Positions 44,279-63,475 are shown, counted from the first letter of the stretch. The stretch is DNA of 64,000 nt from Ignavibacteria bacterium (GCA_016844745.1 JAERMQ010000018.1:15629-79628); one strand, 5' to 3'. The notes: generated by a model from the sequence alone, not told the origin. Made by a program: numbers and translations.

Positions 44279-44758
44279 TTACTTTCCCTGAACTGTTGGC
44301 AAAGTCATTGTAGTTCTTTGTTTTGGATTATCGCAAACCCCGTCTCCATCAGCATCGATAAAGTTTGGTTTATTATTACCCTGATTTCTCATTCCTGAAC
44401 CGGTTGTTCCTGTTGTAAAATTATCGCAAACACCATCACCATCGGCATCGATGAAATTTGGTTTATTTTTACCCTGATTTCTCATTCCTGCACCTGTTTT
44501 CCCGGTTGCATTATTATCGCAAATCCCATCACCATTTGCATCGATGAAATTTTTACCGTTCATCCCATTTCTACCCAAACCGGCTCCTGCGGTACCTGTT
44601 GGATTGTTATCGCAGATTCCGTCTCCATTTGCATCGATGAACCTCGCTCCTTTAGAAGCAGCCATTTTACCCTTTCCATGTGGCTGGGCAATTGATATTG
44701 AATTCGATATTACCATTGTTACAACAAACAATGCAATTATTCCAATTAATTTCTTCAT
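44279..44758 (-). CDS. secreted repeat protein: 4 x 'NFIDA[ND]GDG[IV]CDN' (Excalibur/EF-hand-like Ca-binding motif)
   Basis: Signal peptide; four near-identical ~23-aa repeats. Confidence 0.6.
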   Translation of the reverse strand: MKKLIGIIALFVVTMVISNSISIAQPHGKGKMAASKGARFIDANGDGICDNNPTGTAGAGLGRNGMNGKNFIDANGDGICDNNATGKTGAGMRNQGKNKPNFIDADGDGVCDNFTTGTTGSGMRNQGNNKPNFIDADGDGVCDNPKQRTTMTLPTVQGK

Positions 44759-44984
44759 TTTAAAATTCCTTTAAATGTTATAAAAATTTATTTCAAATTA
44801 TGGCGCCAAGTAAATTATACACATGAACTGTGCCAAAGATGTAAATAATTGCATTATAAGGAATTAACGAAATTTTTTGAAATTGATAAATATTGAAAAA
44901 CGACAATTTTGTCGTTAAATAAAGCAAATTTGTTGTAAATATTAAATTTATTTTCAGGAGAAAAGAATTAAGCCTTATTTCAGT

Positions 44985-45125
44985 ATCTCAAACCAATTTT
45001 CTGGTCGTTCGACTGATGCTTCAATAGCCTTTTTTAATTTATCCTTGAATTTCCAGCATGTCATCTGCCGCAGTGAAAGCCGTCTTGCAAACTCATAAGA
45101 AGAAATTTCTGAATCCGAAGTATTT
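44985..45125 (-). mobile_element. remnant of IS1595-family transposase N-terminal region (direct repeat of 49660-49800)
   Basis: About 100 bp are ~99% identical to the 3' part of the 49638-50051 ORF. Confidence 0.7.
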
Positions 45126-45143
45126 AAATATTTTTAAAAAATT

Positions 45144-49637: not shown

Positions 49638-50051
49638 TTACTTCAGAATCTCAATCCAATTAGCTGCGCTTTCGCCCGATGCTTCAATAGCCTTTTTTAA
49701 TTTATCCTTGAATTTCCAGCATGTCATCTGTCGCAGTGAAAGCCGTCTTGCAAACTCATAAGAAGAAATTTCATCATTGCCTTTGCATACGCTATAAGCA
49801 ATATAGAAAGCCTTACTAATCGAAAATCTGCAATGATGGAAAATTGTACCGGCAGTTGCCGACTCTTCCTTTTTGCATTTGGTACACCTTCTTGAGAAAT
49901 GAGTTTTCCCAGGGCAGCTATTTGTGTTGCCGCATTTTTTGCAAGTAAATCCGGCTGACCACTTCAAATCAGCCAAAAATTCATAACATGCCAAATCGCT
50001 TGTAAACAGGCTTTCTATTTGAGCTTGAGTTAATTCTTTATAAAATATCAT
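49638..50051 (-). CDS. IS1595-family transposase, N-terminal zinc-ribbon/HTH fragment only (no DDE domain)
   Basis: 'CKKCGNT...CPGKTHFSRRCTKCKKEESATAGTIFHHCRFSISKAF' matches the IS1595 N-terminal domain. Truncated at 137 aa. Confidence 0.6.
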   Translation of the reverse strand: MIFYKELTQAQIESLFTSDLACYEFLADLKWSAGFTCKKCGNTNSCPGKTHFSRRCTKCKKEESATAGTIFHHCRFSISKAFYIAYSVCKGNDEISSYEFARRLSLRQMTCWKFKDKLKKAIEASGESAANWIEILK

Positions 50052-50588: not shown

Positions 50589-51194
50589 ATGAAAATCTAT
50601 AAAAATGGAATCATTTTATTAACATTAATGTCATTTTCAATGTTTTACTCCTGCTCGAAAAACGAGGATGCTCAGGATAAAAATAAACCGAATGTTGAGC
50701 AGAATAGCGCATCAACAGGCAAGTCATCGGTTTTTCCGGTCATCAAGGTCGATGCACCAATAGGTAAACAAGCAGCTAATTTTTCTTGGAAAGAAGATAA
50801 TCAGGCTGTCAATTTTGCGGAATTTACCAAAGGAAAATTTGTATTCCTGAACTTCTGGGGAACATGGTGCCCGCCATGCAGGAGGGAAATTCCGGATATT
50901 GTGCAACTTGCAGCAGAGATGAAAAATAAAAACCTTGTAGTTATTGGAGTTGCTTTGGAACGAGTAAATACAGTTGAAGAAGCAATAGATGTAGTTTCCA
51001 GGTTTTCCAGTAGTAATAATATGGGCTACACTAACGTTATAGCTACACAACAATTAACTGAAGCTTTCGGTGGTATTGAGTCGGTTCCAACTACCTTTCT
51101 CATCGATGATAAAGGAATGATTGCTCAAGTTATTCAGGGCTCCCAGAGTAAAGAGGCATTCATGACAGAAATAAATAAAATGATGAAAAAGTAA
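50589..51194 (+). CDS. TlpA/ResA-like thiol:disulfide oxidoreductase lipoprotein (thioredoxin fold)
   Basis: 'FWGTWCPPCRRE' and an 'FYSC' lipobox. Confidence 0.8.
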   Translation: MKIYKNGIILLTLMSFSMFYSCSKNEDAQDKNKPNVEQNSASTGKSSVFPVIKVDAPIGKQAANFSWKEDNQAVNFAEFTKGKFVFLNFWGTWCPPCRREIPDIVQLAAEMKNKNLVVIGVALERVNTVEEAIDVVSRFSSSNNMGYTNVIATQQLTEAFGGIESVPTTFLIDDKGMIAQVIQGSQSKEAFMTEINKMMKK

Positions 51195-51212
51195 AATCAT
51201 TATAAGAGACAT

Positions 51213-51300
51213 CTGAAAATTGTCTTTCGTAAGCGAAGTGAAGAATCCGGGAACCGCATTGGGACTGGATTCTTCACTTCGTTCAGAATGACATTCTTCT
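51213..51300. repeat. MITE-family nested palindrome (GAAGTGAAGAATCC...GGATTCTTCACTTCG + TTCAGAATGACATTC terminus)
   Basis: Read directly; homologous to 23870-23950. Confidence 0.65.
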
Positions 51301-51454
51301 TGGCTTTTGAGACAACCTCACTTTTTATATTAAACTCATCCATGTTAGTTTCCAATAGGGAATACAAATGAACTTTTAGTCAGAAAATAAATCAACCATA
51401 TGGTTAACCCTATGGTTGATGTAATATACAAATTCAATCATTTCTTATATCAGA

Positions 51455-52456
51455 TTATTTTACGATTTCATAGTTCTGACATTCAGACTCTTTCCAGGCA
51501 GATTTATTCTTAGCAATCATTGCATCATAGAATAATGCGTTACCGCCATAAGATATAGATTTTATATCATATCCCATTACTTTAAGGAATGCTGTAGCAT
51601 ATCCGGCAGTATGACCGGTATAGCAATAGATTGCACAGGTTTTATTTGTTGGGATTGTCTTCAAGAAATTAGCTAATTTAAAATCGGATTTTGGCACATA
51701 ATTAATTGCTCCCTGCAAATGACCGGGGTCTTTATAATCGGCAACCGTCCAATAAGCCATAATAAAATAATTGGCTAAATTACCAATAACGACATCTTGC
51801 TTGACTGATGGAAATCCGTCAATGAAAAGCTGTGCAATCCTTGCATCTAAGATTTCCTTGCCGATTGCTTTTCCTGTACTTAATGTTGGTAGCGAACCTA
51901 AAGCGGGTTTTGGAATTGAATCCTGCTTTAAATATGCCTGTCCGCCATTACCTACACCATTTGTCCATGTAGCTTTAAAATCCGAATGCCAGGAAGCCAT
52001 GCCGAACTTCATGCTGAATACATTTCCATATCCGGATAATCTGAGCAAACATGTAGAATAAGCAGCAGATTGACCTGAAAAACAGACCATATAAACTTTG
52101 GTATATTTTGTCATATCATTTGCCTTAAAATAATTCAGGATTTCTTTAAATTGAACATTTATAGCTCCTGCAATATGTCCTTTTGCGAAGGTTGCCGTAT
52201 CGCGAATATCCATTACGAAGTACTTCGCAGGGTCGGCAGTTATGTTTTGCTTGACTTCGGTAGTCGGCGCAATATTACTGCCGGTTACGTTAATATAGTC
52301 TCCGCCTGTACTTTCGAGATACTGGACAAGTATCTCGGATTCATTTACCTTTGTAGGTTCAGTTGAATTATCATCGCTGCAACCGATGAACATGAATACT
52401 ACCAACGAGAATAATAAAGCTAATAAAGCTTTTCGGTCATTAATTTTACAAATCAT
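51455..52456 (-). CDS. tandem rhodanese-domain sulfurtransferase lipoprotein
   Basis: Two rhodanese-like halves with Cys loops ('CFSGQSAAY' and 'CYTGHTAGY'); 'FIGC' lipobox. Confidence 0.65.
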   Translation of the reverse strand: MICKINDRKALLALLFSLVVFMFIGCSDDNSTEPTKVNESEILVQYLESTGGDYINVTGSNIAPTTEVKQNITADPAKYFVMDIRDTATFAKGHIAGAINVQFKEILNYFKANDMTKYTKVYMVCFSGQSAAYSTCLLRLSGYGNVFSMKFGMASWHSDFKATWTNGVGNGGQAYLKQDSIPKPALGSLPTLSTGKAIGKEILDARIAQLFIDGFPSVKQDVVIGNLANYFIMAYWTVADYKDPGHLQGAINYVPKSDFKLANFLKTIPTNKTCAIYCYTGHTAGYATAFLKVMGYDIKSISYGGNALFYDAMIAKNKSAWKESECQNYEIVK

Positions 52457-52536
52457 AAAATCTCCATATTTAAATTTAACATATATTGTGTATTAGAAAT
52501 TACTTATGTAAATACAACAAGTAATTCATAAATTTT

Positions 52537-53844
52537 CTATTTCAACCAACTTTGTGGTAATTTATCATCTACAGCAATTTTATTAGATGATGATTTTTCC
52601 CAATCAAATTTAAAATCAGACTGGAATAAATAGAATTGTTTGTTCCTAAATTCATTTCCATCATTAATAATATGACAAGCATCGTAACAGGGTTTTCCAT
52701 TCGCAACCTTTGTTCTGTCTGTCCATTTTAAAGTATTATGAGGTGTTGCATAATTATAAACAGGCAATGCATCGAAATTTGGTAAATTCGGTACACCATA
52801 CAGCACCCAGCTATCGGGAGCCATTAGAGTATGCCTAACTAAAGCAAATTTAAATTCCGGTTTGGCGTCCGGTATTGGATTCAATGCAATTTTAAAATCC
52901 TGATAAGATGCAATTCTGGCGCCATCTCCATTTATATGGCAGCTTCCGCAATTATTATAAGCCTGCGAATGGCAGGTATTGCAGCTAAATGAATTATAGT
53001 GTATTGAATGATACTGATTTTTTGACTCCAAGCCGGTATGACAATTCTTACACTTTGGCAGGTGCTCATACTTATATCTTTGTTCGATAAATTTCCCGGA
53101 GCCATGAATTTCATCTTTAGTATGGCAACTGACGCAGGTAAAGCCCGATTTACTTAAATGAACATCCGGCTGTGTCCCCGATGCCACTCCGAGAAATGCA
53201 TGTCCTCCCCGGGAAGTATGGCAACCGACACAGGTGTTAATCATATCCGGTTTCCCTGAAAAATCGTGACCATTCATAAGTCCGCCGCCTTGCGCTTTTG
53301 GTCTGTTCACATGACAATCGCCACAAGTAGATGCATGGCATTTCGCGCAGTTATATTCATATCCGTCTTTTACTTTCTGGGGAAGCTGCGTGAATTCAGT
53401 CGCATCCTTTAATCCCATCCTTAAGCAGACTTTTCTCTTTTGCCCCCAACCCATTTGATGAAGACTGTTGCTGTGGTTAAGAACTGCCGATTCATGGCAG
53501 CTTTTGCACTTTTCGGAGGCGAAATCTTTAGTCGGATGAGCAAGGAAATTTCCACTGTGGGCTTTATTCTTATCATCTGTGTTGCCAATACCATTATGAC
53601 ATCCAACGCAACCTATGGGATAATGCTTTGATTTTTTGAAAGACTCGTAGCCTACACCGCTAATAAAAACCCTGTCGAATGGTTCGTAATGAGGAGTTTC
53701 ACCACCACAGCTCGACCCTCCGCTACCGGTATCGGGGGTAAATACCTGCTTTAGGTGTGCATAATTAGTATGGCAGCCTTCACATGAAGCAACGGTCTTA
53801 TTATCGGGTTCTACAGGATTACCTGAATTGTTGCATCCTACCAA
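52537..53844 (-). CDS. multiheme c-type cytochrome (~10 CxxCH), lipoprotein; annotated from a TTG start because of an upstream in-frame TAA
   Basis: Ten or more CxxCH motifs. In the same frame upstream: ATG(53889)...TAA(53862-53860)...'LLILFLVGC'. Confidence 0.7.
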   Translation of the reverse strand: MVGCNNSGNPVEPDNKTVASCEGCHTNYAHLKQVFTPDTGSGGSSCGGETPHYEPFDRVFISGVGYESFKKSKHYPIGCVGCHNGIGNTDDKNKAHSGNFLAHPTKDFASEKCKSCHESAVLNHSNSLHQMGWGQKRKVCLRMGLKDATEFTQLPQKVKDGYEYNCAKCHASTCGDCHVNRPKAQGGGLMNGHDFSGKPDMINTCVGCHTSRGGHAFLGVASGTQPDVHLSKSGFTCVSCHTKDEIHGSGKFIEQRYKYEHLPKCKNCHTGLESKNQYHSIHYNSFSCNTCHSQAYNNCGSCHINGDGARIASYQDFKIALNPIPDAKPEFKFALVRHTLMAPDSWVLYGVPNLPNFDALPVYNYATPHNTLKWTDRTKVANGKPCYDACHIINDGNEFRNKQFYLFQSDFKFDWEKSSSNKIAVDDKLPQSWLK

Positions 53845-53903: not shown

Positions 53904-54374
53904 TTAATTAATATGGTTCCTTGACCACGCAGTAAGGGAGTTCAATAGTTCTTCTATTGCCACCAATACCGAATCCCTCGCTTCCAATGGTATATGTTCT
54001 AATACTTTTTCATGTAATAACACATGCTGTTCGATTACTTGCTTTATAAATGGCTGCGCAGTTTCCGTGAGCCTGACTTTGATATTTCGTCTGTCGTTTA
54101 AATCTATTTCTCTTGAGATATAATTTTTCTTTTCCAATGAAGTTATAATTTGAGTTATCCTGCCGGAAGTTAATCCCATAATTTTTGCCAATTCTTTTAC
54201 GGAAAACAGGCATTCACAATCCAAAAACCTCATGCAGCGAAACTCGGCATTTGTCAATCCAAACAGTTTTGTGAAATATTGTTCCTTATCTTCACAGGCA
54301 CGAGCTAACAAAAATGTCAATTGAGCGAGTTTTGCAGCTTGTGCTAGCCTTTTTTCTTTTTTTTCTTTAGTCAT
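53904..54374 (-). CDS. MarR-family transcriptional regulator
   Basis: Winged-helix 'LTSGRITQIITSLEKKNYISR'. Confidence 0.75.
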   Translation of the reverse strand: MTKEKKEKRLAQAAKLAQLTFLLARACEDKEQYFTKLFGLTNAEFRCMRFLDCECLFSVKELAKIMGLTSGRITQIITSLEKKNYISREIDLNDRRNIKVRLTETAQPFIKQVIEQHVLLHEKVLEHIPLEARDSVLVAIEELLNSLTAWSRNHIN

Positions 54375-54617
54375 AATTAAATCTCAAAATAGTTAAACCT
54401 CTAAATAATTTAAGTTATAAATAATTTAAACTATAAATAATTTAGTCACTAAACTATTATTGCAAATTTAATAACAATTTTACTATTTTGCAAAGGATTT
54501 TTTTTTGTAAATATTTTGTGTAGAAATAAATATTGAGTTTGTTCTGTAAAATAATAACATGGCATTACTTCATTCGAGGTTGTGTGAAAAGTAAAAACAG
54601 TGATGAAAATAAGGATA

Positions 54618-54705
54618 ATGAAGAACCCCTCCCTAACCCTCCCCGAAGGGGAGGGAATTGATAAATAAGACCTCTCCTTCGGGGAGGGTTAGGGAGGGGT
54701 TCTTC
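54618..54705. repeat. CCCTAACCC-family hairpin variant (CCCCTCCCTAACCCTCCCCGAAGGGGAGGG...)
   Basis: Read directly; the arms covary. Confidence 0.7.
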
Positions 54706-54788
54706 ATTTAGTTAAATATTGAAGTAAATATGGTTTTCACACAGCCTAATTCACAGGTATGACAATTTTTAGAACATCCCAATAATTC

Positions 54789-56813
54789 TTGAATTTTCAA
54801 AGTATGACTATAAAACCAAATATAAAAACGATTCTTTTCGGTACCCTTATAATTGCTACACTCATATTTATTTTTGTTATCATTGAATATCTCGAAAGCC
54901 GCGGTGAGTTATTATCTTTGTTAAAAAAACAAGCAGGTAACCTGACCGAGTCATTATCCCTGAGTTTTGAGAATACGATTACAAGTAATATTGAAGCAGA
55001 AAACTTATTAACTGATAAACTTAATTCTGTAGCTTTTCTTGTTGCTCAATATCAATCACGGAACAAAAATATTGAACCGGAATTAAAAGAATTAGTAAGA
55101 GAATTTCAGGTTGACGGAATCAATATAGTAAATTCAAAAGGTGTTATACTATTTAGCACGATATGGGAGGAACCTCATGGACGGCTGGACGATGAATTGT
55201 TAACTCAACTGAAACCGATATTCGATGGAGATTATCAATGGTTGAACATGGGATTATTACCTGTAAAGCCTGATGAACGGCAGAAATATATTTTTGCAAG
55301 AATTGGTAAAGATAAAAATACTATTGTAATCATTTTCATCGATGCAGATAAGATATTACATTACAGGAAGAAATTCGGTATTGGTGCCCAGATTCGTCAG
55401 ATAGCAGATAATGATGATATTGAATACCTGTTGCTTCAGGATAAAGATGGAATTGTTTCGGCATCGAAAGGTATAGATGATATTTCATCGATAGAGTCCG
55501 ATACATTTGTCAGGGATGCATTTCAATCCGGAAGAATCAGCACCAGACTTATTGATTATAAAGACAAAAAGATTTTCGAGATAGCCAAAACCCTTATATT
55601 ACCGGACAATTCTATACTATTGCTTCGTTTAGCCCTTTCGACTGAAAATATCAGGGCGATACAACAACGCTCAATGAGAAGAGTTATAATTATAGGTATA
55701 GGAATTTTTATATTATTTTCAATTCTTTATGCATACATTATAATAAGAAAGGGATATTCCAGGCTCAAGGTCGAACACCGGAAGATTGTCAACCTTGCAG
55801 ATTTGGTTTTGGATAATATGGCAGATGCGGTAATAGCTGTAAACGGTGAAAAAATAATTCTATATTTCAATAATTCTGCATCCAGAATAACCGGTTTAGA
55901 ACCACTGGAAGTAATTGGTAAAAGTTATCAAAACGTTTTTTCAGGTTATAAACAAATCTTGTCTGTTCTTACAGGTGAGGGACCGGTTGTTAATCAGGAG
56001 CTTGAAATTATAAATTCCAAAAATGAAAAGATAACATTGGAAATTAGTATTTCAAATATTTTGAATGGAAATTTGGAACCTGAGCTTTCAATTATTATAT
56101 TCAAAGACCTAACTGAAAAAAAGCGGCTGAGAACTCAATTGGAAAGAAATGAAAAGCTTAGTGCAATGGGTGAGCTTGCTGCCGGTGTTGCACATGAAAT
56201 TAGAAACCCTCTTAATTCTATTAATATTATTGCTCAAAGGATTCAAAGAGAGTTCCAGCCAAAGGAAAAGAAAGATGATTTCGAAAAATTTATGCAAACT
56301 ATCCGTTCTGAGATTGTGAGAGTCAATAATATTGTCAAACAATTTTTAGAATTTTCCAAACCACAGAAATTGCTGATATCAAAAGAAAACGTCATTGGAA
56401 TAATTGAAGAATGTCAGGCTGTATTTGAGTCGGAAGCAAAATTGAATAATATTTTAATTATTAATGATTTTCCCGGTATTCCTTTATTATCTCTCGATAA
56501 AGGAAAAATGAAGCAGGTATTTATCAATTTATATAAAAACTCCATAGACTCTATTGGCTCCAACGGTTCTGTTAACAGCGCTCTTCAAATTCGGAACAAT
56601 TCTGTAGAAATTAAAATTGCAGATACAGGAAAAGGAATACCTGATGAATTAATATCAAAAGTATTTAACTTATATTTTACAACCAAACCTCATGGAACCG
56701 GGTTAGGTTTGAGTATTGTTCATCAAATAATAAGCGAACATAACGGAAGTATTAGTTTGACAAGCCAGGAAAATATCGGTACCGAAGTTATCATTAATTT
56801 ACCGGTTGAATAA
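54789..56813 (+). CDS. sensor histidine kinase (periplasmic sensor + PAS + HisKA + HATPase)
   Basis: Two TMs flank a ~270-aa sensor; 'AHEIRNPLNSI' and 'GTGLGLSIV'. Confidence 0.85.
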   Translation: MNFQSMTIKPNIKTILFGTLIIATLIFIFVIIEYLESRGELLSLLKKQAGNLTESLSLSFENTITSNIEAENLLTDKLNSVAFLVAQYQSRNKNIEPELKELVREFQVDGINIVNSKGVILFSTIWEEPHGRLDDELLTQLKPIFDGDYQWLNMGLLPVKPDERQKYIFARIGKDKNTIVIIFIDADKILHYRKKFGIGAQIRQIADNDDIEYLLLQDKDGIVSASKGIDDISSIESDTFVRDAFQSGRISTRLIDYKDKKIFEIAKTLILPDNSILLLRLALSTENIRAIQQRSMRRVIIIGIGIFILFSILYAYIIIRKGYSRLKVEHRKIVNLADLVLDNMADAVIAVNGEKIILYFNNSASRITGLEPLEVIGKSYQNVFSGYKQILSVLTGEGPVVNQELEIINSKNEKITLEISISNILNGNLEPELSIIIFKDLTEKKRLRTQLERNEKLSAMGELAAGVAHEIRNPLNSINIIAQRIQREFQPKEKKDDFEKFMQTIRSEIVRVNNIVKQFLEFSKPQKLLISKENVIGIIEECQAVFESEAKLNNILIINDFPGIPLLSLDKGKMKQVFINLYKNSIDSIGSNGSVNSALQIRNNSVEIKIADTGKGIPDELISKVFNLYFTTKPHGTGLGLSIVHQIISEHNGSISLTSQENIGTEVIINLPVE

Positions 56814-56942
56814 TACCGACAATTATTTCCTAAAAACCTACAAAATTGTCGTTAAAGAACTTTTATTAATTAATCTTAAATACCATTATTTTCTTCTATA
56901 TCAATAATTTATCTCTTTGGCATAACTTTTGAATATACTCTT

Positions 56943-57701
56943 TTGAAAATAATTATTAATTTATTAAGGTGTATTATGAAAAAATATTTCAGTTTTCTAT
57001 TTCTTTTGACATTAATTGCTTTATTTGTAAATGTTACAAATTCGTATTCTCAAAAGGGCAAAGGGCATGGACAATGCTGTGCTAAGGGTTCCGATGCAAC
57101 ATGTAAATTTGTCGATGCAAACGGCGATGGTAAATGCGACAATTTTGTCGATGCAAACGAAGACGGTAAATGTGATAATTGCAAAGGAAACGGTCAATGT
57201 ACCGGCACGGGTAATTGCAAAGGTAAAGGCAACGGAAATTGCAATGCAGCAGGAACCGGCAAAGGAAATTGCTGCAATTTTGTAGATGCCGACAACGACG
57301 GCAAGTGCGATAAATTTGTAGATGCGGATAACGACGGCAAGTGCGACCTTCGTGGCTCGAAGGGAAAAGGATGCGCCAAAGGAATGGGACATGGCAACAA
57401 AAATTGCAAATTCGGAACAAATAAATCGAATACTCAATCGAAATTTACAATTAACCAGAATGCTCCGAATCCGGTTAGTAATTTCACAAAATTATCATTC
57501 AATTTAAAAGAAACAAATAGTGTTAAGGTAGAACTATATGATAGTTACGGGAAAAAAGTAAAAGAAGTATTCGAAGGCAAGCTTCCGGCAGGGGATAATA
57601 CAGTAGATTTAAATACAACAGAAGTGACACCGGGTAATTATTTCTATACTGTTGAAGTAGCAGGTAAAGTGCAGTCAAAACAATTGATTATTTTAAAATA
57701 G
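56943..57701 (+). CDS. secreted repeat protein: 4 x 'FVDA[ND][NE]DGKCD[NK]' Ca-binding-like motifs + Gly/Lys/Cys-rich linker + T9SS C-terminal domain
   Basis: Repeats read directly. C-terminal 'APNPVSNFTKLSF...GNYFYTVEVAGK'. Confidence 0.6.
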   Translation: MKIIINLLRCIMKKYFSFLFLLTLIALFVNVTNSYSQKGKGHGQCCAKGSDATCKFVDANGDGKCDNFVDANEDGKCDNCKGNGQCTGTGNCKGKGNGNCNAAGTGKGNCCNFVDADNDGKCDKFVDADNDGKCDLRGSKGKGCAKGMGHGNKNCKFGTNKSNTQSKFTINQNAPNPVSNFTKLSFNLKETNSVKVELYDSYGKKVKEVFEGKLPAGDNTVDLNTTEVTPGNYFYTVEVAGKVQSKQLIILK

Positions 57702-57865
57702 AGAAAAAATTTTAAATGATATGTTTAGCTTACTATCATTAGAACCGGAAATAATACAATTTCCGGTTCTTTGTTTTTCTAAAGCTATAGTTAATTTAAT
57801 TAATGCTGGGGCTGTCTCATAAGTATAAATAGTTGTCTTTACTGCGAAAGAGGTTTCTGAAAAGT

Positions 57866-58135
57866 CAGGAAGAATGTCATTCTGAACTCTAAAATAATGG
57901 AATTAATAAAAATACACAATGACAAAATCAAGAGAAACCCCCTAACCCCCTTTGAAAAAGGGGGAATTGATTATCCCCCCTTTTTCAAAGGGGGTTAGGG
58001 GGTTTCTCAATGTTGAAGTAGTTACCATTATTTTGTATCAAGAAAAATCTGTCATTGGTAACTTGATTCAGAATCCATAAACCGCACTGGGAGTGGATTC
58101 TGAATCAAGTTCTGAATGACATTACATAATTTTTT
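57866..58135. mobile_element. composite MITE-like element with ~15-bp terminal inverted repeats AATGTCATTCTGAAC
   Basis: Left end 'gaatgtcattctgaac', right end 'gttctgaatgacatt'. Internal CCCTAACCC hairpin plus a nested palindrome. Homologous to 23641-23950. Confidence 0.65.
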
Positions 58136-58191
58136 ATTAACTTTGTTTTTTATATTTGAAATAACCTATAATATATGGGTACAAAAGTAAG

Positions 58192-59568
58192 TTGATGAAG
58201 AAATATAAAATATTATTGGTTGATGATGAGGAATCGCAAAGGGAGGCAATAAAAGGCTTTCTCGAGGTTGAGGGATATACTGTGTTCCCGGCATTTTCCC
58301 ATTCTGAAGCTATAAAGTTATTTCAGGTTCATGATTTGGATTTAGTTCTTACGGATTTCAGGTTACTTGATAAAACGGGTTTGGATGTACTTAAAGATGT
58401 AAAATCCATAAATCCATTAGTACCCGTAATTGTTATGACAGCATTCGGGACTATTGACAGCGCAGTTAATTTAATGAAACAAGGCGCTTTCGATTATCTT
58501 CAAAAGCCAATCGAGTTAGATGAGTTGCTTCTTTCAATACAGAAATGTGAAGAACTATCTTATCTGAAATCCGAAAATAAGCAGTTGAAAGAACTTTTAT
58601 CCGAAAAATTCTCATTCGAATCAATAATTTCCCAAAGCGGTGAGATGGAATCAATTCTTAGTATGGCAACCAGGGTAGCAAATTCAAAGGCAACCGTATT
58701 GGTCAGGGGAGAAAGCGGTACCGGCAAGGAATTGATTGCAAGAGCCATCCACTTTGCTTCCGATAGGAAAGATAAACCATTTATTGTTGTTAATTGTGCA
58801 GCAATGCCGGAAACATTATTTGAAAGCGAATTATTCGGTCATGAAAAAGGAGCTTTTACCGGCGCTGAGAGGCAAAGACTCGGGAAATTCGAATTAGCTT
58901 CTCAAGGTACATTATTTATCGATGAAGTTGGTGATATACCTGCTGCAATACAGGTCAAATTGCTCCGGGCGATTCAATTCGGTCAGTTTGAGCGGCTCGG
59001 TGGAAATAAAGTTATTAATACCGATGTTAGAATAATCACTGCTACTAACCGAAATCTTGAAGAAATGATTCGTAAAAATGAGTTCAGGGAAGATTTATAT
59101 TATAGATTCAATGTAGTACCGATTTTCATTCCTCCTTTGAGAGCTCGTAAAGTCGATATTCCCGTCCTGACAAATTATTTTATAAAAAAATATGCTGCTC
59201 AGAATGAAAAAGAAGTCAAATCAATATCAAAAGAAGCTATGAATGCCCTAATGAAATATGATTTCCCCGGTAATATTCGCGAGCTTGAGAATATGCTCCA
59301 AAGATCTGTGGTACTTACCCGGAATAATTTTATTTCAATAAATGATTTACCCAATCATATTACCGAACCTGCTTATTTTGAAAATAAAGACCTCGATTTG
59401 GAAAATCTCGAAATAGGCGATATGTCAAGAAAAGTTGAAGAGTTAGAGAAAGCGCTTATTGAATTGGCTCTGAAGAAAACCGGCGGCGTTCAGGTGAAAG
59501 CAGCCGAACTTCTGAATATCTCCGATAGGATGTTCAGGTATAAATTTAAAAAATATAAGGGTGGATAA
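58192..59568 (+). CDS. sigma-54-dependent response regulator (REC + AAA+ activator + Fis-type HTH), NtrC family
   Basis: 'LLVDDE...D' receiver, 'GESGTGKE', 'GAFTGA', the 'ESELFGHEKGAF' GAFTGA-loop region, and a C-terminal HTH. Confidence 0.9.
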   Translation: MMKKYKILLVDDEESQREAIKGFLEVEGYTVFPAFSHSEAIKLFQVHDLDLVLTDFRLLDKTGLDVLKDVKSINPLVPVIVMTAFGTIDSAVNLMKQGAFDYLQKPIELDELLLSIQKCEELSYLKSENKQLKELLSEKFSFESIISQSGEMESILSMATRVANSKATVLVRGESGTGKELIARAIHFASDRKDKPFIVVNCAAMPETLFESELFGHEKGAFTGAERQRLGKFELASQGTLFIDEVGDIPAAIQVKLLRAIQFGQFERLGGNKVINTDVRIITATNRNLEEMIRKNEFREDLYYRFNVVPIFIPPLRARKVDIPVLTNYFIKKYAAQNEKEVKSISKEAMNALMKYDFPGNIRELENMLQRSVVLTRNNFISINDLPNHITEPAYFENKDLDLENLEIGDMSRKVEELEKALIELALKKTGGVQVKAAELLNISDRMFRYKFKKYKGG

Positions 59569-59917
59569 AGTTATGAAAAGGTTTTTCCCAATCACCGGAA
59601 AAGTATTATTTATACTGATTTTGACTTTGGTCACATACGGTATAACCTATTCGCAATCCGGCAAATCAACCGGAATAGCAAAGAAGAATAAAAAGAAATC
59701 AGAAAAAGTTACCGATTCCTGCTATTCTAAATCCATAAATGATTCATGTATGCACTGGAAGGGAAATAAAGGATTTTGCAAGGATGGTAAACAACCATGC
59801 AGAATGAGGGACAAATTTATCGATAACGACAGCGATGGTATTAACGACGAACGATGTATGGGATTAGGATTGGGAAATAAACACAGAAAAGGAAAATGCT
59901 GTGAAAAGAAAAAATGA
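59561..59917 (+). CDS. small secreted Cys-rich protein with one 'FIDNDSDGINDERC' Ca-binding-like motif
   Basis: Signal peptide. Overlaps the response-regulator stop by 8 nt, implying translational coupling. Confidence 0.45.
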   Translation: MDKVMKRFFPITGKVLFILILTLVTYGITYSQSGKSTGIAKKNKKKSEKVTDSCYSKSINDSCMHWKGNKGFCKDGKQPCRMRDKFIDNDSDGINDERCMGLGLGNKHRKGKCCEKKK

Positions 59918-60270: not shown

Positions 60271-60723
60271 ATGAAAATACATAATGAAATTGAGATTGAT
60301 AATAATACACCACTGTATGCTATTGGTGTTGTTGCTCAATTATTGGATGTTTCAGTCCATGTAATCAGGATGTATGAAATGGAAGGTTTGATTATTCCTT
60401 TCAAAAAGGATTCCCGGCACCGGCTTTATTCAAATAATGATATAACCCGGCTTAAGTGTATTCGCAGTGGCATTAATGAACACAAACTTTCAATAGCTTC
60501 CATTAAAACACTTTATTCAATGATACCCTGCTGGAGTATTAAAAATTGTTCTCCCGAAGAAAGAAATGTATGCGAAGCATTTTCAGGTAGTAATTTGCCC
60601 TGTTGGAGTTATAAGCATAAAAATAATCTGTGCGAATTGCAGGAATGTAAGAATTGCGAAGTTTACACTAATCATACCAATTGTGAAAGTATTAAAGACT
60701 CAATAAAACTGGCAACGAGGTAA
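60271..60723 (+). CDS. MerR-family HTH regulator with Cys-rich C-terminal domain (9 Cys)
   Basis: 'YAIGVVAQLLDVSVHVIRMYEMEGLI' MerR HTH, and 'CWSIKNC...C...CWSYK...C...C..C...C'. Confidence 0.6.
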   Translation: MKIHNEIEIDNNTPLYAIGVVAQLLDVSVHVIRMYEMEGLIIPFKKDSRHRLYSNNDITRLKCIRSGINEHKLSIASIKTLYSMIPCWSIKNCSPEERNVCEAFSGSNLPCWSYKHKNNLCELQECKNCEVYTNHTNCESIKDSIKLATR

Positions 60724-60725
60724 AA

Positions 60726-62936
60726 ATGAATTCATTGTCAAGACGGAAATTCCTTCAAATCTCAGGCTCAACCTTTGCCGCAGCCTCTGCCATCGGAGCA
60801 TTGGGCTATGCTGCAAAAGGCTCGCTGGCACTTGCCGAAGAGAAGAAGGAATCCGGCATTAAAAAAATACCGACTTATTGTAATTTATGTTTTTGGAAAT
60901 GCGGCGCAATTGCCTGGCTGAAAGACGGTCAATTGTGGAAAATAACAGGCAATCCATTAGACCCTCTCAGTAACGGAAGATTATGCCCGAGAGGCACAGG
61001 CGGAATAGGAACCAATACAGATCCCAACAGGCTCAAAGCTCCACTAATTCGCACAAAGAAAAGGGGAGAGGATGCATGGAGTGTTGTAACATGGGACGAA
61101 GCTCTCAATTATATTGCCGGGAAATTAAATAAAATAAAGAGCGAGTTAGGTCCAGAATCAGTTGCTTTGTTTAGCCATGGAATAGGGGGAAATTTTATTA
61201 AACATACTTTCTTAGCTTACGGCACACCACACATCTTCGCACCATCCTATGCCCAATGCCGTGGACCCCGCGATGTGGGATTTGAACTAACATTTGGAGA
61301 AGGAATAGGTTCGCCTGAACGCACAGATATAAAAAATACAAGATGTATGGCTCTTATCGGCTCGCATTTAGGCGAAAACATGCATAATTCACAGGTTCAG
61401 GAATTGTCAGTTGCCGTTGATAATGGTGCTTCAATCATCGTTGTTGACCCACGGTTCTCAATCGTAGCAGGAAAAGCAAAATATTACCTGCCTATCAAGC
61501 CCGGAACCGATATGGCGTTATTATTAGCATGGGCTAATGTTATAATCAAAGAAAAAAAATATGATGTCGAATTTGTCGAGCTATATGGTTTGGGATTCGA
61601 GCAGTTCGCCGCTTCCGTAGCTCAATATACTCCGGAATGGGCATATACCGAAACAGGAATCGAACCACAACTAATTATTGAAACGGCGTTGGAATTGGCT
61701 CGCAATAAGCCAGCTTCTTTCATTCATCCGGGCAGACATACAACCTGGTATGGCGACGATACTCAAAGAAGCCGTACAATTGCTTTAGTCAATGCTTTGC
61801 TTGGTAACTGGAATCATAAAGGCGCCTTTTTCAAGCCTGTGAAGTTGAAAGTTCCGTCATATCCTTACCCTGATTATCCCGAATCGACAAGAGGCAGGGC
61901 TGATAATCCTGGCAAGAAATATCCCTGGGCGGGTGAAGACGAAGGATTGACGAACGGTATCCGTGAAGCTACAATAACTGGCAAGCCATATCCAATAAAG
62001 GCTTGGGTAACATACTCAACTAATTTAATTAATGCACTACCAAATCAACAGGAGACTATCAAGGCAATTCAGAATCTTGATTTAATGGTTGCAATTGATA
62101 TTTTGCCAAGTGAAATTGCAGGCTGGGCAGATGTTGTTCTTCCCGAAGCAACCTACTTAGAAAGATTCGATGATTTGCACAGTTCGCCATTTACGACCCC
62201 GTTTCTTGGAATTCGTCAGCCGGCAGTTAAACCACCGGAAGATCAAAAGCCAGGTTGGTGGATAGCAAAAAAATTAGCTGATAAATTAGGATTAGGTCAA
62301 TATTTCCCCTGGAAAGATATTGAAGAATATTTGAAATACAGAGTTGAAAGCGCAGGTTTATCTTATGATGAACTAAAAGAAAACGGTATTATTCTTGGTG
62401 AAAAATTGCCTAATTATGTAGAAGAAGGATTAGAGCAATCATTTCCCACACCAAGCGGAAAGGTTGAATTCTATTCACCTCAGTTAGAAGAAAAAGGATT
62501 TCCACCGATACCTGTATATACAAAACATGAGAATCCGCATGACGGTTATTTCAGACTGCTTTTCGGAAGAACGCCGGTTCATACATTCAGCTTCACCCAG
62601 TCAAATCCTATTCTTCAGGAAATGTTCGAAGAAAACGAAGTATGGATTAATGCCGATATTGCAAAATCATATAACCTTAAATCAGGAGATTACATCAAAC
62701 TAAAAAATCAGGATGGTGTTGTTTCAAACAAGCTGAAAGTCAGGGCAACTGAACGTATCCGAACTGATTGTGTCTATATGGTTCACGGATTCGGACATCA
62801 ATCTAAGGCTTTAAAGACAACATACAATAAAGGAGCAAATGATGCTCAATTAGTAACAAAATATAAAATTGACCCGATAATGGGCGGGACTGGGATGAAC
62901 GTGAATTTCGTTACATTTATTCAGGAGGGTGTATAA
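60726..62936 (+). CDS. molybdopterin oxidoreductase catalytic subunit, PsrA/PhsA/TtrA/ArrA-like (Tat-exported)
   Basis: 'RRKFLQISGSTFAAASAIG' Tat signal. C-x2-C-x3-C-x28-C cluster; 736 aa. Confidence 0.8.
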   Translation: MNSLSRRKFLQISGSTFAAASAIGALGYAAKGSLALAEEKKESGIKKIPTYCNLCFWKCGAIAWLKDGQLWKITGNPLDPLSNGRLCPRGTGGIGTNTDPNRLKAPLIRTKKRGEDAWSVVTWDEALNYIAGKLNKIKSELGPESVALFSHGIGGNFIKHTFLAYGTPHIFAPSYAQCRGPRDVGFELTFGEGIGSPERTDIKNTRCMALIGSHLGENMHNSQVQELSVAVDNGASIIVVDPRFSIVAGKAKYYLPIKPGTDMALLLAWANVIIKEKKYDVEFVELYGLGFEQFAASVAQYTPEWAYTETGIEPQLIIETALELARNKPASFIHPGRHTTWYGDDTQRSRTIALVNALLGNWNHKGAFFKPVKLKVPSYPYPDYPESTRGRADNPGKKYPWAGEDEGLTNGIREATITGKPYPIKAWVTYSTNLINALPNQQETIKAIQNLDLMVAIDILPSEIAGWADVVLPEATYLERFDDLHSSPFTTPFLGIRQPAVKPPEDQKPGWWIAKKLADKLGLGQYFPWKDIEEYLKYRVESAGLSYDELKENGIILGEKLPNYVEEGLEQSFPTPSGKVEFYSPQLEEKGFPPIPVYTKHENPHDGYFRLLFGRTPVHTFSFTQSNPILQEMFEENEVWINADIAKSYNLKSGDYIKLKNQDGVVSNKLKVRATERIRTDCVYMVHGFGHQSKALKTTYNKGANDAQLVTKYKIDPIMGGTGMNVNFVTFIQEGV

Positions 62937-63475
62937 TGGCTCGTTACGGAATGGCGATTGATACTAAAAAATGCGTTGGCTGCATGGATTGCGTCGTTGC
63001 CTGCAAAACGGAAAATAACGTACCGGAAGGCTACAACAGGGATTGGATAACGAATGAAACTGCTGGAAAATTCCCGGCATTGCGGCAGGAAATCAGGACG
63101 GAAAGATGCAACCAATGTGATAATCCACCCTGCGTTTATTGCTGCCCAACGGGAGCAAGTCATATTTCCGATACCGGAGGTATTGTTATGATAGATAAGA
63201 ATAAATGTATCGGATGTAAAGCATGTTTAGCGGCATGTCCCTATAATGCGAGGTTCGTTCATCCCGAAGGCTTCGCATCGAAATGCACTTTCTGCGAGCA
63301 AAGGGTTATTCAGGGAGAAAAGCCAGCCTGCGTTGAAGTATGTCCGACATATTGTATGAATTTCGGTGATTTGGACGACCCGCTAAGCATTGTAAGCCAG
63401 CTTATTTCGAAAAGACCAAATCATGCGTTGCTTCCTCCTGCCGGCACCAAACCACAAATATTTTATTTAACGTGA
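62936..63475 (+). CDS. 4Fe-4S electron-transfer subunit (PsrB/NrfC-like)
   Basis: 'KKCVGCMDCVVACKTENN' and three further Cys clusters. The start overlaps the catalytic-subunit stop. Confidence 0.85.
   Translation: MARYGMAIDTKKCVGCMDCVVACKTENNVPEGYNRDWITNETAGKFPALRQEIRTERCNQCDNPPCVYCCPTGASHISDTGGIVMIDKNKCIGCKACLAACPYNARFVHPEGFASKCTFCEQRVIQGEKPACVEVCPTYCMNFGDLDDPLSIVSQLISKRPNHALLPPAGTKPQIFYLT

What the first reader, a model, noticed from the sequence alone, without database searches (positions are those of the whole stretch)
54789..59917. Sigma-54 two-component locus interleaved with secreted 'FxDAxGDGxCDN' repeat proteins
A sensor kinase (54789-56813) and an NtrC-family sigma-54 activator (58192-59568) flank a T9SS-secreted protein built from four 'F[IV]DA[ND][GN][DE]DG[KI]CD[NK]' repeats (56943-57701). 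The response regulator is translationally coupled to a small secreted Cys-rich protein (59561-59917) carrying one such motif.

The motif resembles the Excalibur / EF-hand DxDxDG calcium-binding loop but is one residue shorter and always followed by Cys. A candidate -24/-12-like element, TGGCAT-N4-TTTGA, sits at 56917-56933 upstream of the repeat gene.

This looks like a dedicated signalling circuit controlling secreted Ca/metal-binding repeat proteins. I do not recognise the repeat as a described family.
Basis: partly seen in the sequence, partly recalled or inferred. Interest (0 to 1): 0.6.

Follow-up and report, generated by a model that had tools for sequence, protein, structure and literature searches.

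The report
Sigma-54 circuit driving secreted Asp/Cys-repeat proteins
An Ignavibacteria genome carries a sensor kinase and sigma-54 activator that appear, from conserved promoters and operator sites, to switch on three small secreted proteins built from a calcium-loop-like "FVDxxGDGxCDN" repeat. That repeat family is large, unstudied, and sits next to envelope signalling genes in many anaerobic phyla.

Summary
The kinase (54789-56813), the T9SS-tailed protein with four repeats (REP, best start 56976, to 57701), the NtrC-type activator (58192-59568) and the small secreted protein (SMALL, best start 59573, to 59917) are all present.

Comparative data support a dedicated circuit.
- The cassette recurs in relatives with unrelated flanks.
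- A -24/-12 element (TGGCAY-N5-TTGN) and an upstream palindrome (CGACA-N4-TGTCG) are conserved in front of the repeat genes.
- In 13 of 13 metagenome loci with usable upstream sequence, SMALL lies directly after the orthologous activator.
- The interleaved kinase-REP-activator order is a sub-lineage variant. The commoner order is kinase-activator-promoter-repeat gene(s).

The repeat is an exact Dx[DN]xDG calcium-loop motif with a near-invariant Cys. It fails the EF-hand, Excalibur and thrombospondin-3 models, and AlphaFold2 models it as disordered. Metal binding is therefore inferred, not shown.

The family has at least 883 clusters. About half of 79 genome loci sit beside sigma-54 or OmpR two-component systems or ECF sigma/anti-sigma pairs. 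No paper was found. I rate it a new variant of known kinds, of moderate interest.

The parts
54789..56813 (+). Sensor histidine kinase (HK). It has two transmembrane segments flanking a periplasmic domain of about 260 aa, followed by PAS, HisKA and HATPase_c.
   Evidence: Pfam and NCBIfam. The kinase core is closest to ThkA (3a0r) and ZraS (9jfj) among solved structures. The periplasmic domains of orthologues weakly match dCache_3 (4 of 6 members, best E 3.9e-4) and sCache_3_2 (one member, 2.5e-6).
56817..56821 (+). Upstream CGACA half-site (box 1 of the putative enhancer).
   Evidence: Invariant in the six-locus alignment A2.
56838..56851 (+). Putative EBP-binding palindrome CTACAAAATTGTCG. 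The consensus is CGACA-N4-TGTCG, and this copy has one mismatch.
   Evidence: Exact palindromes occupy the same position in L002, L006, L007, L008, L005 and L024.
56918..56932 (+). Sigma-54 type -24/-12 element, TGGCATAACTTTTGA, 58 nt upstream of the REP start codon.
   Evidence: TTGGCA and TTG are invariant across orthologous loci.
56976..57701 (+). REP, a 241-aa secreted protein. It consists of a signal peptide, a Cys/Gly/Lys/Asn-rich region of about 139 aa with two pairs of FVDxxxDGKCDx motifs, and a T9SS type A C-terminal domain.
57741..57778 (+). Intrinsic terminator (12-bp stem followed by a T-run) that makes REP a monocistronic unit.
   Evidence: Equivalent hairpins follow REP in L001, L002, L006 and L008.
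58192..59568 (+). NtrC-family sigma-54 enhancer-binding response regulator (EBP), with receiver, AAA+ (GAFTGA) and HTH_8 domains.
59573..59917 (+). SMALL, a 114-aa secreted basic Cys-containing protein. Its conserved core is CRM(K/R)DxFIDxDxDGINDxRCxG(M/L)GLG, and it is co-transcribed with the EBP.
   Evidence: The orthologous EBP lies immediately upstream in 13 of 13 informative metagenome loci.
44279..44758 (-). REP2, a 159-aa secreted protein with four FIDA(N/D)GDG(I/V)CDN motifs separated by Gly/Thr/Asn linkers. It is a third predicted member of the regulon.
   Evidence: Orthologues lie next to the cassette in L006, L008 and L009.
44821..44835 (-). -24/-12 element of REP2, TGGCACAGTTCATGT.
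   Evidence: It is conserved in L006 (TGGCACGAATAATGA) and L009 (TGGCACGCAAAATGT).
44901..44914 (-). Exact palindrome CGACAAAATTGTCG upstream of the REP2 promoter.

Best explanation
This is a self-contained sigma-54-dependent two-component regulon. Its output is a small set of exported proteins built from one 12-residue repeat, [FY]-[VI]-D-x-[DN]-G-D-G-[VIK]-C-D-N.

Proposed mechanism:
1. The membrane kinase senses an extracytoplasmic signal through a periplasmic, probably Cache-type, domain of about 260 aa.
2. It phosphorylates the NtrC-type activator.
3. The activator binds a CGACA-N4-TGTCG palindrome (plus an extra CGACA half-site) roughly 60-75 nt upstream of a -24/-12 promoter.
4. It remodels RpoN-holoenzyme there and switches on REP (exported by Sec, then T9SS, to the cell surface or medium) and REP2 (Sec-exported).
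5. SMALL carries a variant of the same motif. In this lineage it is co-transcribed with the activator. In most other lineages it is itself the first gene behind the same operator and promoter.

The repeat is an exact Dx[DN]xDG loop with a further Asp at position 9, so the proteins most likely bind Ca2+ or a similar divalent cation. They probably fold only on binding, as thrombospondin type-3 repeats do. The conserved Cys would serve as a disulfide staple or an extra ligand. By analogy with ZraP/ZraSR, SMALL may feed back on the kinase in the periplasm.

Basis of each step:
- Shown by sequence comparison: domain architectures, synteny, conserved promoter and operator, export signals.
- Inferred: the phosphorelay, operator occupancy, the ion bound, the stimulus sensed, and any feedback.
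For: - Domains of the kinase, activator and T9SS tail.
- The four-gene cassette is conserved with unrelated flanks in L001/L009, L002, L006, L007, L008 and L088.
- A -24/-12 element lies 42-127 nt upstream of repeat genes in Ignavibacteria, Hydrogenedentes, Nitrospiraceae, Melioribacter, Chloroherpeton, Desulfobacterota and Omnitrophota. 24 of 84 repeat genes carry it, against about 4 expected from the background rate.
- The operator occurs 3 times in the window at up to one mismatch, against 0.47 expected, and two of the three are upstream of REP and REP2.
- In related loci, exact palindromes lie mostly just upstream of repeat genes, including loci with no adjacent two-component system (L005, L024). 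Two exceptions were seen: one inside the kinase ORF of L085 and one downstream of SMALL in L087.
- A terminator follows REP in all orthologues examined.
- SMALL lies directly downstream of the orthologous activator in 13 of 13 informative loci. The same operator and promoter sit in the gap in L090, L095 and L099. L100 has the palindrome with a TGGTAT-type -24/-12. L087 and L093 have CGACA half-sites plus a -24/-12. L097 has a -24/-12 only.
- Motif logo from 695 units: D1 100%, [DN]3 99%, D5 95%, G6 100%, C8 85%, D9 98%. This matches the Dx[DN]xDG calcium-binding class (PMC3123361).
- The REP2 motifs align onto the two calmodulin EF loops, though not significantly (E 0.02). REP2 also has sub-threshold similarity to the thrombospondin-3-like CglD and MtsD.
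- The repeat region is modelled as disordered while the C-terminal domain is confident.
Against: - No experiment bears on any step.
- No rpoN gene is in the window, so sigma-54 presence is assumed from the activator.
- The -12 element here is TTGA, not TTGC. The C of the consensus GC is missing throughout the Ignavibacteria-type loci.
- The repeat fails the EF-hand, Excalibur, dockerin and TSP3 HMMs, and no structure supports a Ca2+ site.
- REP is 11% Cys in its repeat region, and some relatives have Gly/His tails or CDF transporter neighbours. These features point to softer metals.
- The Cache assignment of the sensor is weak, and the window protein itself does not hit.
- Related T9SS-tailed repeat genes in L003 and in Kapabacteria (L013) lack both an adjacent two-component system and the promoter.
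Confidence: 0.6

Rival explanations
1. The regulatory circuit is the same, but the proteins are thiophilic or transition-metal binders (Zn, Cd, Cu, Ni or Fe), acting as metallothionein-like buffers or envelope-stress proteins. On this reading the system is a functional analogue of ZraPSR, and the kinase senses metal or envelope stress.
For: - 15 Cys in the 139-aa REP repeat region, with CxxC-like CDNC spacing.
- Many Firmicute relatives end in Gly/His-rich tails such as ...HHGGGHHGGRW.
- CDF cation-efflux genes lie immediately downstream in 3 Kapabacteria-type loci, and Mrp/NBP35 genes lie upstream in 4 loci.
- The kinase core and the activator score well against ZraS and ZraR models.
Against: - The invariant positions are Asp, Asn and Gly, which are hard-cation ligands. 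There is only one Cys per motif.
- REP2 has exactly one Cys per repeat and no His-rich tail. SMALL replaces the motif Cys with Asn.
- ZraS and ZraR scores are far below the equivalog cutoffs, and AtoS/AtoC score higher.
- His-rich tails occur in only 9 of 178 sampled proteins.
Confidence: 0.22
2. The repeat proteins are structural surface or matrix components, such as adhesins or Ca-bridged coat material. The two-component system would respond to a nutritional or surface cue unrelated to metal ions, and the cation would have only a structural role.
For: - T9SS type A C-terminal domains typically anchor cargo to the cell surface (family knowledge).
- The closest described sequence relatives are Myxococcus surface proteins with thrombospondin-3-like repeats, CglD and MtsC/D (bioRxiv 10.1101/2023.10.19.562135).
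- A Cache-type sensor would suggest a small-molecule ligand.
Against: - REP2 and SMALL lack any anchoring domain and are very small.
- The strict linkage of SMALL to the activator, and of Firmicute family members to ECF sigma/anti-sigma operons, looks more like a signalling accessory than bulk matrix.
Confidence: 0.12
3. The adjacency is fortuitous. The kinase and activator regulate other genes, and REP was inserted between them.
For: - A 490-nt spacer with a MITE-like insertion lies between REP and the activator gene.
- In most related loci the kinase and activator genes are adjacent, with nothing between them.
Against: - The operator and promoter are conserved in front of repeat genes, and apart from two stray palindromes (L085, L087) were found nowhere else in the loci examined.
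- The cassette is conserved with different flanks.
- SMALL is linked to the activator in 13 of 13 loci.
Confidence: 0.03
4. The repeat proteins are precursors of modified peptides (RiPPs or bacteriocins) in which the conserved Cys is cross-linked.
For: They are small, repetitive, Cys-bearing and low in complexity.
Against: - They have classical Sec signal peptides and a T9SS C-terminal domain.
- No radical-SAM, lanthipeptide or protease/transporter genes appear among the conserved neighbours.
Confidence: 0.03

Closest known systems
ZraS/ZraR/ZraP of E. coli and Salmonella, a sigma-54 two-component system with a periplasmic metal-binding accessory protein (PMC4987338)
   Same: - Membrane histidine kinase plus NtrC-type sigma-54 activator.
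- The main target is an adjacent gene for a small exported, metal-associated protein.
- The kinase core and the activator score against the ZraS and ZraR models, and solved ZraS is the second-best PDB hit.
   Different: - Scores are far below the equivalog cutoffs: ZraR 414 against 760, ZraS 198 against 479. AtoC and AtoS score higher.
- The targets share no detectable similarity to ZraP (no Pfam or NCBIfam hit to any chaperone family).
- The sensor domain is a different, Cache-like domain of about 260 aa.
- Gene order differs, one target is a T9SS cargo, and the operator differs.
Dx[DN]xDG calcium-binding loops: EF-hand, dockerin, thrombospondin type 3, integrin/FG-GAP and Excalibur contexts (PMC3123361)
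   Same: - Every unit contains an exact D-x-[DN]-x-D-G, with Asp again at position 9 and a hydrophobic residue at position 7.
- REP2 motifs align residue-for-residue with the calmodulin loops.
- As with TSP3 repeats, the region has no predicted secondary structure and contains Cys.
   Different: - No flanking helices, so it is not an EF-hand.
- The Cys falls at loop position 8, not 9 as in the Excalibur motif DxDxDGxxCE.
- No significant hit to the EF-hand, Excalibur, Dockerin_1 or TSP_3 models.
- The 12-residue units are often directly abutting pairs (CDNFVD junction).
Myxococcus thrombospondin-3-like repeat proteins CglD, MtsC and MtsD (NCBIfam NF033765, NF047638, NF047639; bioRxiv 10.1101/2023.10.19.562135)
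   Same: These are the best described-family similarity for the repeat. REP2 hits CglD at E 4.9e-6, and a large family member, P0078, hits MtsC and CglD at about 1e-15. They are acidic Asp/Gly repeats in exported envelope proteins.
   Different: - The matches are local and sub-threshold (24.6 bits against a cutoff of 400).
- The proteins here are about 100-250 aa, not proteins of up to about 1100 aa with additional domains.
- Regulation by a dedicated sigma-54 two-component system is not a feature of those proteins, as far as I know.
Pfam PF27309 'MJ0753_N'
   Same: It is listed in the precomputed annotation for nearly all REP homologues.
   Different: All hits are flagged 'faint'. The model is absent from the local Pfam copy, so membership could not be scored. 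It is named after an uncharacterised archaeal ORF, and no literature was found.

Membership tests
NtrC-family sigma-54 enhancer-binding response regulator | Receiver domain + AAA+ sigma-54 interaction domain with a GAFTGA loop + C-terminal Fis-type HTH | tested here: met
   Response_reg 4.2e-25, Sigma54_activat 6.7e-72, HTH_8 2.6e-11. GAFTGA at 58849.
AtoC / ZraR / NtrC orthologue (NCBIfam equivalogs) | Whole-protein score at or above the curated cutoff | tested here: not met
   AtoC 490.8 against 714, NtrC 420.4 against 558.6, ZraR 413.9 against 760.
Two-component sensor histidine kinase | HisKA phospho-acceptor domain and HATPase_c | tested here: met
   HisKA 7.6e-14, HATPase_c 3e-21, PAS 3.6e-11. 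AtoS and ZraS equivalog cutoffs are not reached.
Cache-type extracytoplasmic sensor domain | Significant match of the periplasmic domain to a Cache model or fold | tested here: inconclusive
   Orthologues hit dCache_3 (4 of 6 members, best E 3.9e-4) and sCache_3_2 (one member, 2.5e-6). The window protein itself does not hit. There is no PDB relative, and the single-sequence AlphaFold2 model is unusable at pLDDT 39.
T9SS type A C-terminal sorting domain cargo | C-terminal Por_Secre_tail / TIGR04183 domain above cutoff, plus an N-terminal signal peptide | tested here: met
   37.6 bits against 27 and 39.1 against 23. The beta-sandwich is modelled at pLDDT above 90. A hydrophobic N-terminus is present.
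Sigma-54 (-24/-12) promoter | GG and GC dinucleotides 10 nt apart (TGGCAC-N5-TTGCW) upstream of the gene | tested here: inconclusive
   GG-N10-G spacing and the TGGCA/TTG bases are present and conserved in all orthologues. The -12 C is replaced (TTGA or TTGT) in Ignavibacteria-type loci, while Hydrogenedentes and Nitrospiraceae loci have canonical TTGC.
Sigma-54 (-24/-12) promoter | rpoN present in the genome, and transcription start and dependence shown | not testable with these tools
   No RpoN box is encoded in the window, and the whole genome is not available.
Excalibur (PF05901) | DxDxDGxxCE motif and an HMM match above 22 bits | tested here: not met
   No hit for REP. The REP2 orthologue P0025 scores 10.8 bits, E 0.66. 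The Cys lies one position earlier.
EF-hand | Helix-loop-helix around a 12-residue loop ending in Glu, and an HMM match above about 25 bits | tested here: not met
   EF-hand_1 scores 13 bits, E 0.076, over loop positions only. No helices are predicted. Loop position 12 is Val, Asn or Gly rather than Glu.
Thrombospondin type 3 repeat (PF02412; NCBIfam throspo3 families) | HMM match above cutoff | tested here: not met
   No TSP_3 hit at E up to 10. CglD scores 24.6 against 400 and MtsD 13.9 against 800.
Dx[DN]xDG calcium-binding linear motif class | The linear motif D-x-[DN]-x-D-G plus a nearby extra acidic ligand | tested here: met
   Present in all 4 REP units, all 4 REP2 units and the 1 SMALL unit. 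The logo from 695 units is. The class definition is in PMC3123361.
Dx[DN]xDG calcium-binding linear motif class | Actual Ca2+ coordination | not testable with these tools
   This needs ITC, a crystal or NMR structure, or modelling with ions.
Pfam PF27309 MJ0753_N | Score at or above the family gathering threshold | tested here: inconclusive
   Only precomputed 'faint' hits are available. The model is not in the local library.
ZraP / CpxP / Spy periplasmic chaperone family | Sequence membership of the secreted partner | tested here: not met
   No Pfam or NCBIfam family hit for SMALL. REP hits only T9SS and FlgD-type models, and REP2 was scanned against NCBIfam only, with no chaperone-family hit.

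The most novel reading that the evidence does not exclude
The FVDxxGDGxCDN repeat proteins may be a previously unrecognised, very widespread class of extracytoplasmic ion-binding accessory modules, acting as co-sensors or feedback ligands. Bacteria and some archaea would plug them into three unrelated kinds of transmembrane signalling system: sigma-54 two-component systems, OmpR-type two-component systems, and ECF sigma/anti-sigma pairs. The Ignavibacteria cassette, with its defined operator, would be the cleanest entry point for studying them.
Probability: 0.2. Interest if true: 0.75.

Novelty: new variant of a known kind. Interest (0 to 1): 0.55.

Why it matters
If the model holds, it defines three things at once:
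- a complete and easily testable regulon in a poorly studied phylum, comprising a sensor, an activator, a 14-bp operator, a sigma-54 promoter and three exported targets;
- a function-linked context for a large family of small secreted repeat proteins that currently has no literature. A single-sequence search found at least 883 clusters at 50% identity, many from gut Firmicutes, sulfate reducers and candidate phyla;
- a possible calcium or metal sensing and buffering module at the cell envelope of anaerobes.

The recurrent pairing of this family with three different classes of envelope signalling systems suggests a general accessory role. That would interest people working on envelope stress, metal homeostasis and T9SS cargo.

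Tried and rejected
- Literature searches for MJ0753, PF27309 and six motif strings returned nothing. A search for Ignavibacteria plus sigma-54 returned nothing relevant.
- A homology search with SMALL alone found only itself.
- A search with the kinase sensor domain returned no hit at all, not even the source protein. That search was wasted, and it left no permitted alignment for structure prediction.
- The single-sequence AlphaFold2 model of the sensor domain was unusable at pLDDT 39, so I ran no fold search.
- AlphaFold2 on REP gave no fold for the repeat region (pLDDT below 50), so structure comparison was pointless there too.
- A profile search of the sensor domain against PDB sequences gave only chance-level hits.
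- An exact copy of the operator palindrome lies inside the REP coding sequence (57137-57150, codons for C-D-N-F-V-D). I considered it as an intragenic binding site or as the origin of the operator. I rejected this because orthologues encode the same peptide with non-palindromic codons.
- The only other -24/-12-like match in the window (16950, minus strand) lies inside a molybdopterin oxidoreductase ORF and is probably chance.
- I considered a functional link to the neighbouring sulfur and redox genes (multihaem cytochrome, PhsA-like reductase, rhodanese, MarR, MerR). I set it aside because the flanks differ in every orthologous locus.
- Rfam found no known RNA in the locus.

Full report
**1. 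What is in the window**

The region holds, all on the + strand:
- a 674-aa histidine kinase (HK, 54789-56813);
- a 241/252-aa protein (REP, ORF 56943-57701);
- a 458-aa response regulator (EBP, 58192-59568);
- a 114/118-aa protein (SMALL, ORF 59561-59917).

Pfam and NCBIfam give PAS + HisKA + HATPase_c for the kinase. For the regulator they give Response_reg + Sigma54_activat (6.7e-72) + AAA_lid_14 + HTH_8, and the GAFTGA loop is present. The best NCBIfam models are AtoS/AtoC, then ZraS/ZraR and NtrC. All score well below their equivalog cutoffs, so the pair belongs to the NtrC class but is not an orthologue of a named system.

REP has a signal peptide and a 139-aa region containing 15 Cys, 15 Asp, 26 Gly, 20 Lys and 20 Asn. 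It ends in a T9SS type A C-terminal domain that passes both curated thresholds. The repeat finder recovers four 36-nt repeats in REP and a fifth, 72%-identical copy in SMALL.

An identical REP protein is deposited from an Ignavibacteria MAG.

Orthologue N-termini put the likely starts at ATG 56976 for REP and ATG 59573 for SMALL. The SMALL start is 4 nt after the EBP stop codon.

**2. Is the kinase/regulator pair really tied to the repeat genes?**

Yes, on three lines of comparative evidence.

(a) Synteny.
- The order HK-REP-EBP-SMALL recurs in L001/L009, L002, L006, L007, L008 and, truncated, L088. The flanking genes differ in each case: TehB-type methyltransferase and GlnRS in one, GDPD and NA37 in another.
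- I anchored an independent metagenome scan on SMALL. All 13 loci with upstream sequence have the orthologous EBP immediately upstream of SMALL (E down to 1e-213).
- In most of those loci the order is HK-EBP-(REP2-like)-SMALL. The interleaved order in the window is therefore a sub-lineage variant.

(b) Promoter.
- Alone it is not significant, with 1 match against 0.66 expected.
- The same element sits 42-127 nt upstream of the repeat gene in the other Ignavibacteria cassette loci (TGGCAC/T-N5-TTGA/T).
- It appears in canonical TGGCAC-N5-TTGC form in Hydrogenedentes (L004, L023, L040), Nitrospiraceae (L028), Omnitrophota (L083) and Desulfobacterota (L042, L076).
- It also appears in loci without an adjacent two-component system (L005, L011, L024).
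- Overall, 24 of 84 repeat genes carry the pattern, against about 4 expected from the background rate of 1.5e-4 per nt.

(c) Operator.
- Alignment of six HK-REP intergenic regions shows an invariant CGACA. About 16 nt downstream lies a (T)CGACA-N4-TGTCG(A) palindrome, roughly 65-75 nt upstream of the -24 element.
- With up to one mismatch, the palindrome occurs three times in the window against 0.47 expected.
- One copy is upstream of REP. One is upstream of a third repeat gene. One is inside the REP coding sequence; this last copy is not conserved in orthologues and is a codon coincidence.
- In the related loci, exact palindromes lie mostly just upstream of repeat genes, including L005 and the Chloroherpeton locus L024. 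The exceptions are one inside the kinase ORF of L085 and one downstream of SMALL in L087.
- In the HK-EBP-SMALL type loci, the EBP-SMALL gap carries related elements. L090, L095 and L099 have half-site + palindrome + -24/-12. L100 has the palindrome with a TGGTAT-type -24/-12. L087 and L093 have half-sites plus a -24/-12. L097 has a -24/-12 only.

**3.

REP2 (44279-44758, minus strand; 159 aa) has a signal peptide and four FIDA(N/D)GDG(I/V)CDN units separated by Gly/Thr/Asn linkers. It has its own exact palindrome (44901-44914) and a TGGCAC-N5-ATGT element (44835-44821). Both are conserved upstream of its orthologues in L006 and L009, where the gene lies 2-4 kb from the cassette.

**4. Transcription units**

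REP is followed by a 12-bp-stem terminator (57741-57778), as are its orthologues. REP is therefore a monocistronic sigma-54 unit nested between the kinase and regulator genes.

The unusually long REP-EBP spacer in the window is explained by a MITE-like insertion of about 250 bp with 16-nt terminal inverted repeats (57873-58123). L002 has a different repeated insertion at the same spot.

EBP and SMALL are separated by about 2-13 nt in this sub-lineage and are presumably co-transcribed.

**5. What is the repeat?**

A logo from 695 units in 176 proteins gives [FY]-[VI]-D-[AE]-[DN]-G-D-G-[VIK]-C-D-N. The frequencies are D1 100%, G6 100%, D5 95%, D9 98% and C8 85%. This is an exact instance of the Dx[DN]xDG linear motif, which at least a dozen unrelated folds use to bind Ca2+ in a near-identical way (PMC3123361).

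Membership of the named families fails.
- At E up to 10, the only Pfam matches are loop-only EF-hand hits (13-15 bits against cutoffs of about 25) and an Excalibur hit of 10.8 bits. There is no TSP_3 hit, and the only Dockerin_1 hit is at chance level (7.5 bits, E 6.3, on P0025).
- NCBIfam gives only sub-threshold local similarity of REP2 to the thrombospondin-3-like Myxococcus proteins CglD (4.9e-6, 24.6 bits against 400) and MtsD.
- Against PDB sequences, the REP2 motifs align onto the two EF loops of the calmodulin N-lobe at E 0.02, which is not significant. REP has no hit.
- AlphaFold2 with an 18-sequence alignment models the repeat region as disordered (pLDDT below 50), while the T9SS domain scores above 90. 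That result fits either metal-dependent folding or intrinsic disorder and does not discriminate between them.
- Precomputed annotation shows 'faint' hits to a recent Pfam entry, PF27309 'MJ0753_N'. That model is not in the local Pfam copy, and no paper mentions it or the motif.

**6. How big is the family, and what company does it keep?**

They come from Ignavibacteria, Kapabacteria, Chloroherpeton, Hydrogenedentes, Nitrospirota, Desulfobacterota, Omnitrophota, Acidobacteria, Actinomycetota, many Lachnospiraceae and Oscillospiraceae, and a Methanosarcinales MAG.
- A full HMMER scan with REP2 alone found 883 cluster representatives at E up to 1e-3, mostly 110-260 aa.
- Among 79 distinct genome loci, the gene immediately downstream is an ECF sigma factor in 22 of the 75 scanned, a sigma-54 EBP in 4, RsgI-like in 4 and a CDF cation exporter in 3.
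- The gene immediately upstream is a histidine kinase in 11 of the 77 scanned.
- Counting by locus, 12 have an adjacent sigma-54 two-component system and 5 have an adjacent OmpR-type two-component system. About half of all loci are therefore next to a transmembrane signalling system.
- In Firmicutes the layout is repeat gene, ECF sigma, anti-sigma, with gaps of 15-27 nt between the repeat gene and the sigma gene, which suggests one operon.

**7. Mechanism proposed**

Shown by sequence comparison:
- a kinase with a large periplasmic domain;
- an NtrC-type activator;
- a conserved operator and -24/-12 promoter in front of REP and REP2, and in front of SMALL in other lineages;
- Sec and T9SS export signals.

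Inferred:
- the phosphorelay;
- binding of the activator to CGACA-N4-TGTCG;
- RpoN dependence;
- binding of Ca2+ or another divalent cation by the repeats;
- a ZraP-like periplasmic feedback role for SMALL. ZraP is the zinc-binding periplasmic partner of ZraSR and is reported to repress that system (PMC4987338).

The stimulus is unknown. The sensor domain of orthologues weakly resembles dCache_3 and sCache_3_2, but I could get no reliable structure.

The main rival keeps the circuit but makes the proteins soft-metal binders. It rests on the Cys content, on Gly/His tails in some relatives, and on CDF neighbours. I give it about 0.2.

**8. Verdict**

The biochemical function remains an inference.

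It is not categorically new. It combines a known regulatory kind (a sigma-54 two-component system with an adjacent secreted partner) with a known motif class (Dx[DN]xDG). What appears undescribed is the repeat family, its defined operator, and its recurrent wiring to three classes of envelope signalling systems. I rate interest at 0.55.

Noticed in passing
window 57873-58123: A MITE-like insertion of about 250 bp between REP and the EBP gene. It has 16-nt terminal inverted repeats (AATGTCATTCTGAACT / AGTTCTGAATGACATT) enclosing a GC-rich 36-nt-arm palindrome (57932-58008) and a second hairpin (58050-58121). L002 carries a different duplicated element at the same intergenic spot.
   Followed up: partly
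window 54617-54708: A second GC-rich perfect hairpin with 38-nt arms (GAAGAACCCCTCCCTAACCCTCCCC...) in the AT-rich spacer upstream of the kinase gene. It is similar in style to the one at 57932-58008 and may belong to a REP/MITE-like repeat family of this genome.
   Followed up: no
window 54373-54452: About five tandem copies of a 16-nt unit (ATAATTTAAACTATAA-like), directly upstream of the divergently oriented MarR-family gene (53904-54374, minus strand). They may be operator repeats.
   Followed up: no
window 44792-44799 (minus strand): A conserved TTGGCGCC box about 20 nt downstream of the REP2 -24/-12 element. It is also present in the REP2 leaders of L006 and L009. Its function is unknown; it could be a 5'-UTR element or a second protein-binding site.
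   Followed up: partly
window 57137-57150: An exact copy of the operator palindrome CGACAATTTTGTCG inside the REP coding sequence, where it encodes the motif junction C-D-N-F-V-D. Orthologues use non-palindromic codons, so I judged it a coincidence.
   Followed up: yes
window 12602-12720 (minus strand): A molybdenum cofactor (Moco) riboswitch, Rfam RF01055, at 80 bits. It fits the several molybdopterin oxidoreductase genes in the window.
   Followed up: no
window 8751-8824 (minus strand): A tRNA gene, Rfam RF00005, at 66.6 bits. It has no evident connection to the finding.
   Followed up: no
window 14178-17057 (minus strand): A 959-aa molybdopterin oxidoreductase that appears to end in a T9SS-type C-terminal tail (...IYPNPAKDYSTINFTL...). 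This would be an unusual pairing of a Tat-type redox enzyme with a T9SS sorting domain.
   Followed up: no
window 60271-60723 and 60726-63475: A MerR-family regulator with a Cys-rich C-terminal half, directly upstream of a PhsA-like thiosulfate/polysulfide reductase and its 4Fe-4S subunit. Multihaem cytochrome, rhodanese and thioredoxin-like genes lie on the other side (50589-53844). This looks like a sulfur-respiration neighbourhood that is not conserved next to the cassette in relatives.
   Followed up: partly
window 44975-45150 (minus strand) and 49638-50051 (minus strand): The sequence just upstream of the REP2 promoter encodes a fragment (...SSYEFARRLSLRQMTCWKFKDKLKKAIEAS...) nearly identical to the C-terminus of the 137-aa zinc-ribbon ORF at 49638-50051. 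It is probably a duplicated or truncated gene, possibly from a mobile element.
   Followed up: no
L071, L070, L048 and about 20 other Firmicute loci: In Lachnospiraceae, Oscillospiraceae and related genomes, the repeat-protein gene is the first gene of an apparent operon with an ECF sigma factor and a membrane anti-sigma factor. Gaps between the repeat gene and the sigma gene are 15-27 nt. In L022, L037, L046, L049 and L057 it instead follows an OmpR-type response regulator and kinase pair.
   Followed up: partly
L013, L015, L016 (Kapabacteria): T9SS-tailed repeat proteins flanked by a divergent Mrp/NBP35 Fe-S-assembly ATPase gene and a downstream CDF cation-efflux gene. L013 has no sigma-54 promoter; L015 and L016 were not checked. 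This hints at a link to transition-metal homeostasis in that lineage.
   Followed up: partly
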